Below, one piece after another: positions 4,482 to 9,274 of a stretch of 64,000 nt of DNA. Both the position numbers and the translations under genes were made by a program. The notes beneath the pieces are model-generated. The model had not been told where the DNA came from. It searched no databases and saw nothing but the letters and a program-made list of their open reading frames with translations. Where the stretch lies: the IMG/VR virus record IMGVR_UViG_3300046168_000050; one strand, written 5' to 3'. Positions within the stretch are counted from its first letter, which is position 1, and each line of letters starts with the position of its first letter. Source of the stretch: a virus.

Positions 4482-4672
4482 TTATAGGGATCCTTTACTT
4501 TGTAAGTTAAATCGATATTCGGGTTCTGGTTCTTTTTTAATTCTTTTACGCCAAGTGTGTGCATAAAAGTAGGATCAGCCATTAGTATGTCAATGACCTT
4601 TTCCCAATCTTGAATTTTACCTTCTAGATATTGCACACGTCGATCGAGATGTGCAACCTGATAGTCTGACAT
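4478..4672 (-). CDS. hypothetical protein
   Basis: ORF tightly coupled to its neighbours. Confidence 0.6.
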   Translation of the reverse strand: MSDYQVAHLDRRVQYLEGKIQDWEKVIDILMADPTFMHTLGVKELKKNQNPNIDLTYKVKDPYK

Positions 4673-4673
4673 A

Positions 4674-5015
4674 TTATCTCCTCATCGATGCAGCATCTAT
4701 CGCTGCTTGTTTGTTATCTTTACGGACTGGCATTAGATTTGATTTATGTGTAACTACAATACCAGCGATTTCATCACCTGTATAGCGACTACGTTCTTTT
4801 GCAAGACCATTGCCTGCTATACGATCACTCGTCATACGAGGACCACAATTATAGTCAGGTAAGTCAGGCCTATAACTTGACTTACCTGAAACAAGTTTAT
4901 CTAGAAACTTTTGATGTTCGGCTTCCGCCTTTAATAATTTATTCGATTTTCGTTTCGCCTTACGGCGTTTCCCTACACCATGGACTTGAACTCCTCTAAT
5001 CATATGCATAGACAT
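4674..5015 (-). CDS. T4-like hypothetical protein
   Basis: YTG..I.GI...HKSN..PV.....A.D.A.MRR motif. Confidence 0.7.
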   Translation of the reverse strand: MSMHMIRGVQVHGVGKRRKAKRKSNKLLKAEAEHQKFLDKLVSGKSSYRPDLPDYNCGPRMTSDRIAGNGLAKERSRYTGDEIAGIVVTHKSNLMPVRKDNKQAAIDAASMRR

Positions 5016-5221
5016 TAAGCTGCCTCCTTATAATGTTGATCGAATGTGCCATAGATACGTAACTTAACATTACGAATATGGTTACATGGTTTACGTGGCG
5101 CTTTTTTACAAGAACAACTGAAACCCTCAGGATGCATGGTGACAGTACCTTTGGCATAAATCCATTCAGTACCGACCATCCAATGGTCCTGAGTATCAAT
5201 GAGACTAGTACTAAAAATCAA
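5015..5221 (-). CDS. SWIM zinc-finger protein
   Basis: CSC-x7-CNH (CxC..CxH). Confidence 0.7.
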   Translation of the reverse strand: MIFSTSLIDTQDHWMVGTEWIYAKGTVTMHPEGFSCSCKKAPRKPCNHIRNVKLRIYGTFDQHYKEAA

Positions 5222-5424
5222 TCTGTGTACCTCCTATCAACTGCAGATGCATCCCATACATACTTGTGCATTCTAGGATCACCTACTATAACAACATCAC
5301 TATCACCAACTTCGCTATAGACACGAGCGTCCATATATTTGTGATAGTAGGCAGGACCACCGAAAACCCTGCGAGCTGCCTCATAACGAGCCTCACTCAT
5401 ACCAACATAGTGTACAGTTCTCAT
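5218..5424 (-). CDS. hypothetical protein
   Basis: AGGAG RBS, which forms part of the upstream RNA stem. Confidence 0.65.
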   Translation of the reverse strand: MRTVHYVGMSEARYEAARRVFGGPAYYHKYMDARVYSEVGDSDVVIVGDPRMHKYVWDASAVDRRYTD

Positions 5425-5430
5425 AATAAA

Positions 5431-5617
5431 CTCCTTTCCTCATACGCCCCTAGTATATCCAATCACTTCCGCACGGCCTTATTGACGTTGCCGCTCTAGT
5501 TTGATTGAAACTAATATCTCCACGTTTTCACGACACTGATATTTCACAGGCGAATTATTCTCGCGAGATTGTGTTTTCAGGTGGCCTGCCCTCTGCACGG
5601 ACGTATGAGGAAAAGAG
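5431..5617 (-). ncRNA. unassigned structured RNA (187 nt) closed by a 19-bp stem
   Basis: CTCTTTTCCTCATACGTCC (5617-5599) pairs fully with GGGCGTATGAGGAAAGGAG (5449-5431). Two G.U pairs work only on the minus strand. GC-rich intergenic segment. Confidence 0.65.
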
Positions 5618-5625
5618 TCTAAGAC

Positions 5626-5910
5626 TCAATCCCAATCGTTGTCGTAACGAGTTGTTTCAAACATTGTTTCGCCATAGTATTCTTTGGCGTATTTAGATGC
5701 ATCAGTCCAGTGATACATGTTAGACTCTTTAGGAATGTCAAGATCTTTTTTCTTACGAGAAACAGGCTTGGCGCGAGAGATAACTGATGCAGACTGTTTA
5801 CGGATCTTAGACATTTTTTTCTTACGCTCAGCGATTTCTTTGATGAGAGCAAGACGATCAGATTGAGTAGTTGCAGTTTTCATAGTATTCTCCATAATTA
5901 ATAAAACCAT
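5626..5910 (-). CDS. hypothetical early protein
   Basis: GGAG RBS precedes an internal ATG; downstream of an early promoter. Confidence 0.65.
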   Translation of the reverse strand: MVLLIMENTMKTATTQSDRLALIKEIAERKKKMSKIRKQSASVISRAKPVSRKKKDLDIPKESNMYHWTDASKYAKEYYGETMFETTRYDNDWD

Positions 5911-5968
5911 TCTACACTATTAAAAACGGTTTGTACACCTTTTTGTTTTGTTTAAAATCAATAACTTA
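5909..5968 (-). promoter_or_regulatory. early promoter with upstream IHF box
   Basis: TGTACA (5932-5937), 17 nt, TAGAAT; AATCAATAACTTA at 5956-5968. Confidence 0.75.
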
Positions 5969-6196
5969 TCATTTTTTTTCTAAAATAAATGCACCTTCCG
6001 GTGAAGTCCATGCTGACATTAATTTTAGATACATCATATCAGTCAAAGCTATAACTTGAAATCTGTCATCCTTTTCATTCCACTGGCGAATATAAACTAC
6101 ATCGTCATAAAGAAAAACCGAAACGTCATCGTATTTTCCTTTATCGTCTAAGATTGTAATGAGTGTTTCGTCCTCATCAAATTCAACTGTATACAT
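5969..6196 (-). CDS. hypothetical protein
   Basis: Compact ORF in the early gene array. Confidence 0.65.
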   Translation of the reverse strand: MYTVEFDEDETLITILDDKGKYDDVSVFLYDDVVYIRQWNEKDDRFQVIALTDMMYLKLMSAWTSPEGAFILEKK

Positions 6197-6286
6197 TCCA
6201 CACCACTGCTATATAGTGAGCATCAAGGTGATCTCGATACTCAATTGCTTTGTAAAGACAATCAAAGATTTTATCGTTAACCTTTA

Positions 6287-6517
6287 TCATCCCCAATCTT
6301 TTCTATCTTCTTCGTTATCATAACCATACATGTAGGCTTCGATCTCACCTACAGTCATGTTATCTTTTCCAACACGTTCAGATTGATATGTAGAACCAAC
6401 ATAATAATGAGGATCTTCTGGCCGGCCGTAATAGGCATCTGCACTACCACGATCTTGAGGTGAACCGTGACGAGGAAGTTTATTCCAACCTTTTACAATT
6501 ACATCTAGATCATACAT
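6287..6517 (-). CDS. phage hypothetical protein
   Basis: HGSP.DRG.AD.YYGR..PHYY motif. Confidence 0.7.
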   Translation of the reverse strand: MYDLDVIVKGWNKLPRHGSPQDRGSADAYYGRPEDPHYYVGSTYQSERVGKDNMTVGEIEAYMYGYDNEEDRKDWG

Positions 6518-6936
6518 TATGCTGCCTCCTTATAATCGACAACGGCAGCTAAATCTTTAACTAGCTGTTTACCATATTGAGTAAACAAAATACCTTGTTC
6601 CCACACAAAGTGTTCAACATCTTGAATGTGATAGAAGGTTTCAGTACTAGTCATCCACAAAAGAGCGTTGGTACGATTACCGGCACCAAGCTCGATAACA
6701 TCTTTAAGACGAGCTTCGAACTTTTCGATAGCAACTACTTCAGCCGATTGCTCGGCTTTAGTATTTTCTTCAAGTTGCTCACACAGAGCATCCCAAAGAT
6801 TTTGCTTTGTTTCATCATCAAACGCTAGAAGGTTTTTCATGAAAATTGCAGAAGGACGGAAGCCATGAACATCTTTATGAAGGTCTGACCAAAGATCATC
6901 TGAGTAAGTAAATTCCATTGTGTTTCTCCTTATCAT
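6517..6936 (-). CDS. phage hypothetical early protein
   Basis: SDLHKDVHGFRP motif; AGGAG RBS. Confidence 0.7.
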   Translation of the reverse strand: MIRRNTMEFTYSDDLWSDLHKDVHGFRPSAIFMKNLLAFDDETKQNLWDALCEQLEENTKAEQSAEVVAIEKFEARLKDVIELGAGNRTNALLWMTSTETFYHIQDVEHFVWEQGILFTQYGKQLVKDLAAVVDYKEAA

Positions 6937-6942
6937 ATATAC

Positions 6943-7022
6943 ATCCTACACTATTACGAATCGTTTGTACATAAAAAAATGCGGAAAATCAAAACTTTGT
7001 TTTCAATGAAATCAACTAGTTA
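6943..7022 (-). promoter_or_regulatory. early promoter with upstream IHF box
   Basis: TGTACA (6966-6971), 17 nt, TAGGAT; AATCAACTAGTTA at 7010-7022. Confidence 0.7.
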
Positions 7023-7584
7023 GCATTTTCTCAGAAAACCATTCCGGAACATCACGCTTAGACCATACCATTTTAAACCGATCTTGCTTTGTTTGATAGT
7101 ATTCTTTATAGGATCTAACAGGATCATCTTTATGAATACACTGTGGTTCATGCTGCATGGCAAGAGCAAATGGAGTATAGAGATTTGACCATGTTGTGCC
7201 ACTCGGCGGTTTTCGTAATGTTTTTCGAAGCAGAATATCAGTGGCATGAACTTTACCATAGCGATATTTGTACTCATCGCATAAAGCTACGAAGTGTTTG
7301 TAATGCCATTCATAGTTAGCATTTGTCTGCATAGTCCATACCGTACACGGGTGCCCGTGGTGTACAGCTTTATATAGGGTATTTTCCAGTGATAATTTAG
7401 GATGCACCCAATATTTGACCATGCGCTTGCCTGACTTAGATGGACGTAACTCCATATAACCATCGAGCATCCTGTGCGCTGTGGATAGCATCTGTGCTGA
7501 TTCTACAATCATTTTGACTACATGCTTGTCGCATTGTAGTACTGCGGCTTCTACGGGGTCTGTTGACAATATAAAAATATTCAT
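7012..7584 (-). CDS. pyrimidine-dimer DNA glycosylase (DenV/Pyr_excise-like) family protein
   Basis: MNIF.L..DP..AA...CDKHVVKMIVESAQMLSTAH, HPCTVW, EY..RYGK.H. Confidence 0.8.
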   Translation of the reverse strand: MNIFILSTDPVEAAVLQCDKHVVKMIVESAQMLSTAHRMLDGYMELRPSKSGKRMVKYWVHPKLSLENTLYKAVHHGHPCTVWTMQTNANYEWHYKHFVALCDEYKYRYGKVHATDILLRKTLRKPPSGTTWSNLYTPFALAMQHEPQCIHKDDPVRSYKEYYQTKQDRFKMVWSKRDVPEWFSEKMLTS

Positions 7585-9197: not shown

Positions 9198-9274
9198 TGG
9201 CGAACACGGAAGGATTCGAACCCTCGACCTAGTGCTTAGAAGGCACTTGCTCTATCCAGCTGAGCTACGTGTCC
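9198..9274 (-). tRNA. tRNA-Arg(UCU)
   Basis: GGACACGTAGCTCAGCTGGATAGAGC...AGTGC-CT-TCT-AA-GCACT...GGTTCGAATCC...CGCCA; encoded CCA. Confidence 0.97.

What the first reader, a model, noticed from the sequence alone, without database searches (positions are those of the whole stretch)
5431..5617. 187-nt orphan structured RNA whose closing helix sequesters the next gene's Shine-Dalgarno
Seen: a GC-rich intergenic element closed by a contiguous 19-bp helix (two G.U pairs, minus strand only). Inner pairings GCAGGCC/GGCCGTGC, AATATC/GATATT and TAGTTT/AAACTA suggest a multibranch core. The 3' arm contains the AGGAG of ORF 5218-5424, followed by a SWIM-finger gene. It matches no tRNA, riboswitch or ribozyme I can recognise. 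Inference: a novel ncRNA (6S-sized, possibly released by RNase III) or a cis translational switch.
Basis: partly seen in the sequence, partly recalled or inferred. Interest (0 to 1): 0.7.

Follow-up and report, generated by a model that had tools for sequence, protein, structure and literature searches.

The report
New self-pairing RNA of marine phages
The stretch is a real gene for a folded non-coding RNA of about 190 bases, from an uncatalogued family common in marine T4-like phages; one loop carries an ever-changing self-complementary word, which suggests that two copies dock, and hiding the next gene's ribosome site is a local side effect.

Summary
On the minus strand, 5428-5620 folds into a junction closed by a 22-bp helix (z -5.3), and the helix's 3' arm contains the AAGGAG of ORF 5218-5424.

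It is a member of a large uncatalogued RNA family. There were 103 hits in IMG/VR, more than 119 in marine metagenomes, none in 185,579 prokaryote genomes or in cultured phages, and no Rfam match.

Covariation is very strong. 98.8% of cells pair, against about 42% when partners are slid, and 25 pairs show compensatory changes.

The P2 loop always holds a 4-nt palindrome at one fixed position (GGCC, GAUC, GUAC or CCGG). That position is 100% self-complementary and includes the highest mutual-information pair in the alignment. Cryo-EM has validated this same signature for symmetric kissing loops in OLE and GOLLD.

The RNA is autonomous. It also sits 3-7 nt before tRNA genes, before terminators and before unrelated genes. 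In those places AAGGAG becomes AAGUAG or AAAUAG with compensating changes. Four large phage genomes carry the RNA without the downstream gene.

SD occlusion is therefore real here but is not the conserved function.

The function is unknown. My best reading is a processed, homodimerising trans-acting RNA.

This scan found the same family earlier on other DNA (e1-5379391).

The parts
5428..5620 (-). Whole RNA element: four helices (P1-P4) around one junction
   Evidence: CM R1 match at 156.6 bits, E 3e-32, full length. MFE z -5.3.
5599..5620 (-). P1 5' arm (AGACUCUUUUCCUCAUACGUCC)
   Evidence: Pairs with 5428-5449. Across the family, 10 of 20 P1 pairs show compensatory changes and 99.5% of cells pair.
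5428..5449 (-). P1 3' arm (GGGCGUAUGAGGAAAGGAGUUU); contains the SD
5571..5598 (-). P2 hairpin: GUGC/ACAC stem, A-rich internal loop, GGG/CCU stem, 8-nt loop
   Evidence: Helices 2 and 3 covary. P2 is kept even in the reduced tandem and mini variants.
5583..5586 (-). GGCC palindrome in the P2 loop (GCA-GGCC-A): proposed symmetric kissing site
   Evidence: Alignment columns 37-40 are 100% self-complementary over 134 cells, with GC, CG, AU, UA and UG types. 42 cells show double changes and 0 of 500 shuffles reach this. Columns 38:39 are the top mutual-information pair of the alignment. The same palette recurs across all 251 loci that hold the core motif.
5516..5569 (-). P3, the long (54-nt) version of an optional, variable-size domain
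   Evidence: The AUCUC/GAGAU closing pairs all covary. Across the family the stretch between P2 and P4 (P3 plus its linker bases) is 4-6 nt where P3 is absent, 15-16, 23-31, 55-58 or 79-89 nt.
5450..5514 (-). P4: UUAGU/ACUAG plus UUCAAUC/GAUUGGA stems carrying the near-invariant apex
   Evidence: Helices 5-7 covary.
5469..5499 (-). P4 apex with the near-invariant 12-nt loop AAYGUCAAUAAG (5478-5489)
   Evidence: Invariant in the alignment. Naturally absent in a sub-lineage (L181-L184, L188-L190) that keeps P1-P3.
5431..5436 (-). Shine-Dalgarno AAGGAG of ORF 5218-5424, inside the P1 3' arm
   Evidence: Unpaired probability below 0.005.
5218..5424 (-). Downstream 68-aa orphan gene ('VHYVG' family)
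   Evidence: Lies directly after the RNA in 39 of 115 non-redundant contexts. No Pfam or PHROG hit. AF2 pLDDT 79 with no PDB fold match. Absent from four RNA-bearing large genomes.
5615..5627 (-). P0 hairpin GAGUC-UUA-GACUC. It overlaps the upstream stop codon and the outer P1 5' arm, and is also a weak terminator-like site.
   Evidence: The state with P0 enforced is 7.5 kcal/mol less stable than full P1.
5626..5883 (-). Upstream 85-aa orphan ORF, whose stop codon ends 5 nt before P1
5015..5221 (-). 68-aa ORF with a CxCx7CxH (SWIM-type) motif
   Evidence: Read. No significant Pfam or PHROG hit.

Best explanation
Window 5428-5620 (minus strand) is a gene for a stand-alone structured non-coding RNA. 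It belongs to a new family carried, one copy per genome where tested, by uncultured marine T4-like phages.

Shown:
- The RNA folds into a compact junction of four helices.
- P1 is a 20-26-bp closing stem.
- P2 is a short hairpin whose loop presents a 4-8-nt palindrome.
- P3 is optional and variable in size.
- P4 carries a near-invariant apical loop.

Inferred:
- The RNA is transcribed inside early or tRNA transcripts.
- It is set free or stabilised by its long P1 stem. RNase P would define the 3' side where a tRNA follows 3-7 nt later. An RNase III-type cut in P1 could act elsewhere, as with rRNA precursor stems.
- Two copies dock through the palindromic P2 loop into a symmetric homodimer.
- The dimer displays two P4 apical loops to a partner that is still unknown.

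In this window, and in about half of the family, the 3' arm of P1 doubles as the SD of the next ORF. That ORF can then be translated only when P1 is cut or opened. This is a local overlay on the RNA, not its conserved purpose.
For: Structure:
- Over 67 distinct sequences, 98.8% of cells pair against 38-46% with slid partners. 25 of 51 pairs show compensatory changes, and 0 of 500 shuffles reach the observed values.
- Selection acts on the RNA strand. G.U pairs occur on the minus strand only, and the fold is z -5.3 against -2.5 for the other strand.

Family size and range:
- 103 IMG/VR stretches and more than 119 marine metagenome stretches.
- 0 hits in prokaryote genomes and 0 in cultured phages.
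- One copy in each of four genomes of 177-275 kb.
- The window's phage is T4-like: DNA polymerase, UvsX-like recombinase, a DnaB-like replicative helicase and RNR.

Not in Rfam 15.

Self-pairing loop:
- The tetramer at fixed columns 37-40 is GGCC, GAUC, GUAC or CCGG (UCGG once), and 100% self-complementary.
- Adjacent columns 38:39 have the highest mutual information in the alignment and cannot pair within one chain.
- The same palindrome switching (GGCC to GAUC or AGCU) marks cryo-EM-verified symmetric kissing loops in OLE and GOLLD (PMC12286853).
- Tandem second copies in L082 and L087 carry a different palindrome from copy 1.

Autonomy:
- A tRNA gene starts 3-7 nt after the element in 11 of the 67 listed elements.
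- Other elements are followed by a terminator or promoter.
- At least five different genes follow the element directly.
- The RNA is present without the VHYVG gene in four genomes.
- AAGGAG is replaced by AAGUAG or AAAUAG with compensation.
Against: - There are no expression data.
- Dimerisation is inferred from sequence only. A 4-bp kissing contact may be weak on its own, and no second interface was found.
- No partner or target was found. The invariant loop has no excess of complementary sites in the window, and no protein family is consistently adjacent.
- A sub-lineage lacks the P4 apex, so that loop cannot be the universal functional site.
- 32 of 67 distinct elements place an SD in P1, and 28 of those 32 have an upstream competitor hairpin. 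This hints that cis effects are selected in that subset.
Confidence: 0.6

Rival explanations
1. It is a cis-acting translational switch (riboswitch-like or protein-operated). The conserved core senses a signal and P1 hides or frees the SD of the downstream gene.
For: - The SD is inside P1 in the window and in 32 of 67 distinct elements, with the ORF start 3-5 nt after the element.
- An upstream hairpin (P0) that mimics the SD arm and competes with outer P1 occurs in 28 of 32 SD-type contexts. It takes at least five sequence-distinct forms and exceeds shuffled controls (mean stem 5.5 against 3.4 bp). Non-SD contexts sit at the shuffle level.
- The near-invariant apical loop could be a binding site.
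Against: - The same RNA precedes tRNA genes, terminators and promoters.
- The SD letters are not conserved, but the helix is.
- Four genomes have the RNA without the gene family.
- Downstream genes are diverse orphans with no common pathway.
- P1 is 20-26 bp, and the P0 state is 2-7.5 kcal/mol less stable with the SD unpaired probability below 0.05. This is unlike riboswitch P1 stems.
Confidence: 0.12
2. It is only an RNA-processing or insulator module. On this reading, the long stem is an RNase III-type cleavage site that separates transcripts and unmasks the SD, and the interior has no function of its own.
For: - An uninterrupted stem of 20-26 bp formed by the 5' and 3' flanks, as in rRNA precursors and T7 early sites (established knowledge).
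- The element sits inside polycistronic units and next to tRNAs.
- L038 keeps only a P1 stub hairpin before the same gene.
Against: - The interior is the most conserved part. It has three covarying helices, an invariant loop and the palindrome rule.
- A bare processing stem would not need them.
Confidence: 0.08
3. It is a new self-cleaving ribozyme, or the RNA of a small mobile element.
For: - It appears at varied insertion points and in tandem copies.
- The interior has been cleanly lost in L038.
- Alternative RNA cassettes with long closing stems occupy the same site.
- Ribozymes are known next to phage tRNAs (my own knowledge of the literature, not checked here).
Against: - No match to any Rfam ribozyme.
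- No associated transposase, reverse transcriptase or endonuclease.
- One copy per genome.
- No target-site duplications were looked for or seen.
Confidence: 0.05
4. It is a DNA-level element, with the terminal inverted repeats or palindromes acting as protein or restriction-type sites.
For: P1 reads as a 22-bp inverted repeat. The loop words GGCC, GATC, CCGG and GTAC are also common restriction or methylation sites (my own knowledge).
Against: - G.U pairs (invariant U20.G, frequent U7.G and G2.U) would be A-C mismatches on the other strand.
- The plus strand folds much worse.
- Compensatory changes preserve RNA pairing in eight helices.
Confidence: 0.03

Closest known systems
GOLLD (RF01998), ROOL (RF03087) and OLE RNAs: 'ornate' RNAs that form RNA-only homo-oligomers
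   Same: - GOLLD and ROOL are phage-encoded and often sit by tRNA genes.
- Their function is unknown.
- OLE L9.3 and GOLLD L21a show the same switching of a loop tetranucleotide between palindromes (GGCC, GAUC, AGCU), which cryo-EM verified as symmetric kissing loops (PMC12286853).
   Different: - There is no sequence or CM relationship.
- This RNA is 3-5 times smaller (about 140-220 nt).
- It has a single junction with one palindromic loop and a long closing stem.
- Only a dimer is implied, not a cage.
- It is found only in marine T4-like phage DNA.
HIV-1 dimerisation initiation site (DIS) kissing loop
   Same: A hairpin loop with a central palindrome flanked by purines. The palindrome differs between lineages while staying self-complementary (established knowledge; reviewed in PMC7357161, which appeared in the listing and was not opened here).
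   Different: The DIS lies in a viral RNA genome and serves genome dimerisation and packaging. Here the carrier is a small RNA of a dsDNA phage.
phi29 pRNA (packaging RNA)
   Same: A phage-encoded RNA of about 120-170 nt, with a long helix formed by its ends, a multi-helix junction and loop-loop contacts between copies (established knowledge).
   Different: pRNA uses two different complementary loops to form a ring on the portal of small phi29-like podoviruses. This RNA has one self-complementary loop, lies in T4-like genomes of 60-275 kb, and shows no homology.
T4 stable RNAs rnaC and rnaD (species 1 and 2)
   Same: Small stable RNAs of unknown function, encoded beside tRNA genes of a T4-type phage (annotation).
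   Different: The CM finds nothing on them (at most 10 bits anywhere in the region). rnaC folds with a tRNA-like T arm, and neither has a long closing stem or a palindromic loop.
Translational riboswitches and SD-sequestering leaders
   Same: In this window the closing helix's 3' arm contains the SD and a conserved core lies above it.
   Different: The P1 stem is too long and stable, the RNA occurs before tRNAs and terminators, and the downstream genes have no common function.

Membership tests
Any Rfam 15 family | Covariance-model match at or near the family's gathering score | tested here: not met
   An E-value scan of window 4500-6800 and of eight diverse loci gave no match on the element at E<=10 and E<=1 respectively.
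GOLLD / ROOL / OLE (ornate self-assembling RNAs) | Homology to RF01998, RF03087 or the OLE model | tested here: not met
   No hit.
GOLLD / ROOL / OLE (ornate self-assembling RNAs) | Large size (over 500 nt) with many helices | tested here: not met
   The element is 138-223 nt with four helices.
GOLLD / ROOL / OLE (ornate self-assembling RNAs) | Loop palindrome that covaries while staying self-complementary (symmetric kissing loop) | tested here: met
   Columns 37-40 are 100% self-complementary with four Watson-Crick palindromes, and 0 of 500 shuffles reach this.
GOLLD / ROOL / OLE (ornate self-assembling RNAs) | Phage-borne and often beside tRNA genes (GOLLD, ROOL) | tested here: met
   18 of the 67 listed elements have a tRNA gene within 1.5 kb, and 11 have one starting 3-7 nt downstream. 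There were no hits in prokaryote genomes.
GOLLD / ROOL / OLE (ornate self-assembling RNAs) | Physical homo-oligomer | not testable with these tools
   This needs native gels, SEC-MALS or cryo-EM.
Riboswitch or cis translational switch | Constant position upstream of genes of one functional class | tested here: not met
   The element sits before tRNAs, terminators and at least five unrelated orphan ORFs.
Riboswitch or cis translational switch | Expression platform with energetically balanced alternative folds | tested here: inconclusive
   A competitor hairpin P0 is enriched in SD-type contexts. It is 2-7.5 kcal/mol weaker than full P1.
phi29 pRNA | Two different loops complementary between copies; phi29-like host phage | tested here: not met
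   There is a single self-complementary loop, and the host phage is T4-like.
T4 rnaC / rnaD | Sequence and structure similarity | tested here: not met
   A CM search of the T4 tRNA region with filters off gave nothing above 10.4 bits and nothing on rnaC or rnaD. The folds differ.
tRNA / tmRNA / tRNA-like | Cloverleaf recognised by ARAGORN or the Rfam tRNA clan | tested here: not met
   ARAGORN finds only tRNA-Arg at 9198-9274. There is no Rfam tRNA or YrlA hit on the element.
RNase III processing stem | Double helix of about two turns (20 bp or more) formed by flanking sequences | tested here: met
   The stem is 22 bp in the window. The longest unbroken run is 20-26 bp in most relatives and 11-17 bp in those with one internal mismatch.
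RNase III processing stem | Actual cleavage | not testable with these tools
   No RNA end data were available.

The most novel reading that the evidence does not exclude
This would be the smallest natural RNA-only homo-oligomer found so far: a 140-220-nt phage RNA whose dimer interface is a swappable 4-8-nt palindrome. The frequent switching of that word between close relatives, and the different words carried by tandem copies in one genome, would then act as a specificity code. Such a code would keep each phage's (or each paralogue's) RNA pairing only with itself, for example during co-infection. The family would then be a compact, tractable model for what the giant GOLLD and ROOL assemblies do.
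Probability: 0.2. Interest if true: 0.85.

Novelty: new variant of a known kind. Interest (0 to 1): 0.72.

Why it matters
Functional RNA-RNA homo-oligomers are rare in nature. The phage-borne examples (GOLLD, ROOL) are huge and still have no known function.

This family shows the same evolutionary signature of a symmetric kissing contact in an RNA of under 200 nt. It also has natural domain-deletion variants: P3 absent, P4 apex absent, and P1-P2-only minis. It is abundant in marine T4-like phages.

That makes it suitable for direct biochemical and structural tests of why phages make self-assembling RNAs.

For annotation, it explains a recurrent 'intergenic' block. It also explains a spurious antisense ORF found in many marine phage contigs. 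Finally, it shows that SD occlusion seen in single genomes can be a by-product of an RNA gene abutting an ORF.

Tried and rejected
**Searches that found no known relative**
- Rfam E-value scans gave nothing on the element.
- blastn against 50,697 cultured phage records gave no match.
- The nearest cultured relative by DNA polymerase is Kyanoviridae phage C48C1 at 56% identity, and it has no copy of the RNA.
- The core pattern is absent from 185,579 prokaryote genomes.
- T4 rnaC and rnaD are unrelated.

**Searches for a partner or target**
- The downstream 68-aa protein has no Pfam or PHROG family. Its AF2 model (pLDDT 79) has no PDB fold match at E<=0.001. The family is absent from four RNA-bearing genomes. 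It was therefore dropped as an obligatory partner.
- A census of ORFs within about 4 kb in 115 non-redundant contexts found only small orphan ORFs and no recurrent enzyme.
- Complements of the invariant loop are not enriched in the window: 19 found against 18.4 expected.
- Mutual information found no further long-range or tertiary pair beyond the helices and the palindrome.

**Structural alternatives**
- The local hairpin UAGUUU/AAACUA has no compensatory change.
- The P0 competitor hairpin is enriched but thermodynamically weaker than P1. It is kept only as a possible kinetic feature.
- I looked by eye for k-turn, hairpin-ribozyme and T-loop resemblances in P2 and P4. None fitted.

**Literature and data that could not be reached**
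- The catalogue of 8,495 IMG/VR candidate RNAs (PMC10690425) could not be checked, because its supplementary files are not held. A fragment of this RNA may be listed there without a name.
- Two literature searches found no description of this RNA.

Full report
**1. The observation**

On the minus strand the stretch between the stop codon of an 85-aa ORF (5626-5628) and the ATG at 5424 is non-coding. It folds far better than chance: MFE -71.7 kcal/mol, z -5.3, and 0 of 200 shuffles fold as well. The plus strand gives -50.9 kcal/mol and z -2.5.

The closing helix is 22 contiguous pairs, between 5620-5599 and 5449-5428, with three G.U pairs.

The AAGGAG at 5436-5431 lies in the 3' arm, 6 nt before the start codon of ORF 5218-5424. 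Its computed unpaired probability is below 0.005.

The next ORF (5015-5221) carries CxCx7CxH, a SWIM-type signature (read). Pfam and PHROGs give no significant hit for it.

ARAGORN finds only tRNA-Arg(TCT) at 9198-9274. Rfam 15 has nothing on the element even at E<=10.

**2. Where it comes from**

No whole genome is held for the window. The window encodes a T4-type replication set: family B DNA polymerase, UvsX-like recombinase, a DnaB-like replicative helicase and RNR. The polymerase is at best 56% identical to an unassigned Kyanoviridae phage and about 46% identical to Synechococcus myoviruses. The source is therefore an uncultured marine T4-like phage.

**3. Relatives**

I found relatives in three ways.
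- The downstream 68-aa protein retrieved 71 IMG/VR loci. A full-length copy of the element lies upstream of the gene in 27 of them, directly in 21.
- An exact pattern from the conserved core found 103 IMG/VR stretches.

The core is absent from 185,579 prokaryote genomes and from 50,697 cultured phage records.

Four IMG/VR genomes of 177-275 kb (77-100% complete) each hold exactly one copy. The closest cultured phage holds none.

**4. Structure**

A 12-sequence alignment (A1) gave an RNAalifold consensus and the covariance model R1. R1 aligned 68 elements, 67 of them distinct (A3).

On A3, 98.8% of 3,329 cells form standard pairs, against 38-46% when partners are slid by 1-3 columns. 25 of 51 pairs have changes on both sides, and no shuffle out of 500 reaches the observed values.

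The fold is a tight junction of four helices.
- **P1** is 20-26 bp. Its two ends are conserved in sequence (ACU.../...AGU outside, CGUCC/GGGCG with an invariant U.G inside). Its middle is freely covarying.
- **P2** has a GUGY/RCAC stem, an A-rich internal loop, a GG(G)/(C)CU stem and an 8-10-nt loop.
- **P3** is closed by AUCUC/GAGAU. The stretch between P2 and P4 (P3 plus its linker bases) is 4-6 nt where P3 is absent, 15-16, 23-31, 55-58 (as in the window) or 79-89 nt.
- **P4** is UUAGU/ACUAG plus UUCAAUC/GAUUGGA. Its apex is near-invariant and ends in the 12-nt loop AAYGUCAAUAAG.

- GCAGGCC/GGCCGUGC cannot hold, because the loop changes while GGCCGUGC does not.
- GAUAUU is part of the P3 closing stem.
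- UAGUUU/AAACUA can form but has no compensatory change, unlike the P4 pairing that competes with it.

**5. The self-complementary loop**

All 31 P2 sequence variants hold a palindrome. It sits at one fixed place, alignment columns 37-40. The pattern is three bases, then GGCC, GAUC, GUAC or CCGG, then a purine, sometimes extended to UGAUCA, AGGCCU, CCGGCCGG or CCGUACGG. One variant has UCGG, which still self-pairs through G.U.

Treated as pairs 37:40 and 38:39, all 134 cells are complementary. The types are GC, CG and UG at one pair and GC, AU, CG and UA at the other. 42 cells differ on both sides, and no shuffle reaches this.

Columns 38:39 are adjacent bases, so they cannot pair within one chain. 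They have the highest mutual information of any column pair in the alignment.

The same palette recurs across all 251 loci that hold the core motif, metagenome copies included. No second copy of the variable word exists elsewhere in the molecule.

Kretsch et al. (PMC12286853) used exactly this signature: an internal tetranucleotide switching between GGCC, GAUC and AGCU. They used it to support the symmetric intermolecular kissing loops seen by cryo-EM in OLE and GOLLD.

Two contigs carry a reduced second copy in tandem (L082 419-531, L087 5900-5995). Each keeps P1 and P2 but has a different interior and a different palindrome from copy 1: GGCC against CCGG, and UGAUCA against CCGG. That fits a specificity rule, though with only two examples.

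**6. An autonomous RNA, not a leader of one gene**

Among the 67 elements listed:
- 32 have AGGAG in the 3' arm. In most of these an ORF starts 3-5 nt later.
- At least five different ORFs follow in this way.
- 11 are followed after 3-7 nt by a tRNA gene on the same strand (Pro, Trp, Thr or Asn).
- Others are followed by a terminator or an early-type promoter.

Where no ORF follows, the arm reads AAGUAG or AAAUAG and the 5' arm compensates: column 6:295 is C-G 31 times and A-U 30 times.

The four large genomes with the RNA have no member of the 68-aa family. A census of 115 non-redundant contexts finds only small orphan ORFs nearby. The 68-aa gene directly follows in 39 of them.

A sub-lineage (L181-L184, L188-L190) has lost the P4 apex. 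It has capped the stem with GAGCUC, UGCA or a short loop, while P1-P3 stay almost unchanged. In L038 the whole interior is gone and only a P1 stub hairpin precedes the gene.

**7. What the SD overlap does here**

In the window the SD is buried at equilibrium. The only visible competitor is P0 (GAGUC-UUA-GACUC, 5627-5615), which overlaps the upstream stop codon. The P0 state costs 7.5 kcal/mol more than full P1.

P0-like hairpins occur in 28 of 32 SD-type contexts, in at least five sequence-distinct forms. They are longer than in shuffled controls (5.5 against 3.4 bp), whereas non-SD contexts sit at the shuffle level. In four other relatives tested, the P0 state is still 2-7 kcal/mol weaker.

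Upstream ORFs end within -9 to +2 nt of P1 in 22 of 31 SD-type contexts and 13 of 32 other contexts.

My inference is that translation of ORF 5218-5424 needs P1 to be cut or opened. An RNase III-type cut would both free the RNA and expose the SD, but this is untested. A kinetic role for P0 or for terminating ribosomes is possible but unproven.

**8. Mechanism proposed, and its limits**

Shown:
- a conserved, strand-specific RNA fold;
- a loop constrained to be self-complementary;
- independence from any one neighbouring gene;
- restriction to marine T4-like phage DNA.

Inferred:
- excision or stabilisation through P1, with RNase P at the 3' side where a tRNA follows;
- homodimerisation through the P2 loop;
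- a partner for the P4 apex.

Not available:
- expression data;
- any target: complements of the invariant loop are not enriched;
- any consistent protein neighbour.

**9. Comparison with known systems**

The element is not a member of any Rfam family.

It works most like the phage-borne self-assembling RNAs GOLLD and ROOL, and like OLE. It is far smaller than these and unrelated in sequence.

The loop resembles the HIV-1 DIS in design. phi29 pRNA shares a junction, a long terminal helix and inter-copy loop contacts, but it uses two different loops and belongs to another kind of phage.

T4's own tRNA-cluster RNAs, rnaC and rnaD, are analogues by position only.

The known cyanophage RNAs (wcaG, manA, glnA, PhotoRC-II, abiF; PMC9964418) are Rfam families, and none matches.

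The large catalogue of IMG/VR candidate RNAs (PMC10690425) could not be checked, because its supplements are not held.

**10. Earlier notes of this scan**

After I had reached the palindrome and tRNA-context reading, a look-up showed that first readers flagged the same family in several other genomes. One follow-up (e1-5379391) reached the same conclusion on other DNA. I re-derived and tested those points here.

- the apex-less and stub variants;
- the different palindromes in tandem copies;
- the absence of the downstream gene family from RNA-bearing genomes;
- the energetics and statistics of the SD/P0 overlay.

**Verdict**

Interest 0.72.

Noticed in passing
L046, L050, L025 and L062: the last ~170 nt upstream of the VHYVG gene, as printed (gene starts at L046:3001, L050:3001, L025:199 and L062:1834): A different RNA of about 140 nt sits at the same site before the VHYVG gene, or before a tRNA. 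It has a 22-bp closing stem (AAACUUCUUAAUACUG.../...CAGUAUUAAGAAGUUU) and an unrelated interior. One hairpin loop of that interior holds the 6-nt palindrome GCUAGC. This may be a second self-pairing RNA family that swaps with the first.
   Followed up: no
L040, L053 and L056 (the ~105 nt before a tRNA or the gene); L051:713-802; L082:419-531(-); L087:5900-5995(-): These are mini variants of about 90-113 nt. They keep the P1 and P2 design, but the P3/P4 domain is replaced by a short unrelated segment. Most carry a CCGG loop; L051 has GGC-AUA-GCC instead. R1 finds only three of them, weakly (28-46 bits); the L040/L053/L056 copies were seen by eye. They point to a wider superfamily defined by P1 plus P2.
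   Followed up: partly
L038:~640-676: The whole RNA interior is deleted cleanly, leaving a perfect stub hairpin (ACUCUUUUCUG/CAGAAAGGAGU) that still contains the SD of the VHYVG gene.
   Followed up: no
L072:13453-13671: The P3 domain carries an extra inserted hairpin whose sequence GGACGGGCCCGUCC is itself a 14-nt palindrome.
   Followed up: no
window 5505-5696 (+) and 5266-5499 (+): Mechanical ORFs of 63 and 77 aa lie antisense to the RNA. An equivalent antisense 'ORF' forms a cluster in 36 of 115 contexts. It is conserved only because the RNA is, and could easily be mis-annotated as a gene.
   Followed up: partly
window 5218-5424 (-) and 5015-5221 (-): An orphan gene pair is conserved across divergent lineages, down to 31% identity for the first gene in L181-L190. 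The first is a 68-aa 'VHYVG...RVFGxP...H...D.R' protein, and a small CxCxnCxH (SWIM-type) protein follows it in the window and in at least L188 and L190. The AF2 model of the first (beta-alpha-beta-like, pLDDT 79) has no PDB match.
   Followed up: partly
L036, L046, L051, L053 and L143: just upstream of the RNA: A strong G-rich hairpin (GGGGAGRGG...loop...CCYCUCCC) followed by ACGAAAACU recurs immediately 5' of the RNA cassettes. It may be a terminator or a processing signal.
   Followed up: no
window 9198-9274 (-): tRNA-Arg(TCT) lies about 3.6 kb upstream on the same strand as the RNA. In relatives the RNA often sits inside or at the edge of tRNA arrays of up to 11 genes (L098).
   Followed up: partly
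window 7012-7584 (-): A 190-aa ORF has a weak, sub-threshold Pfam match to Pyr_excise (T4 DenV-type pyrimidine dimer glycosylase): E 7e-4, 20.4 bits against a cut-off of 23.
   Followed up: no
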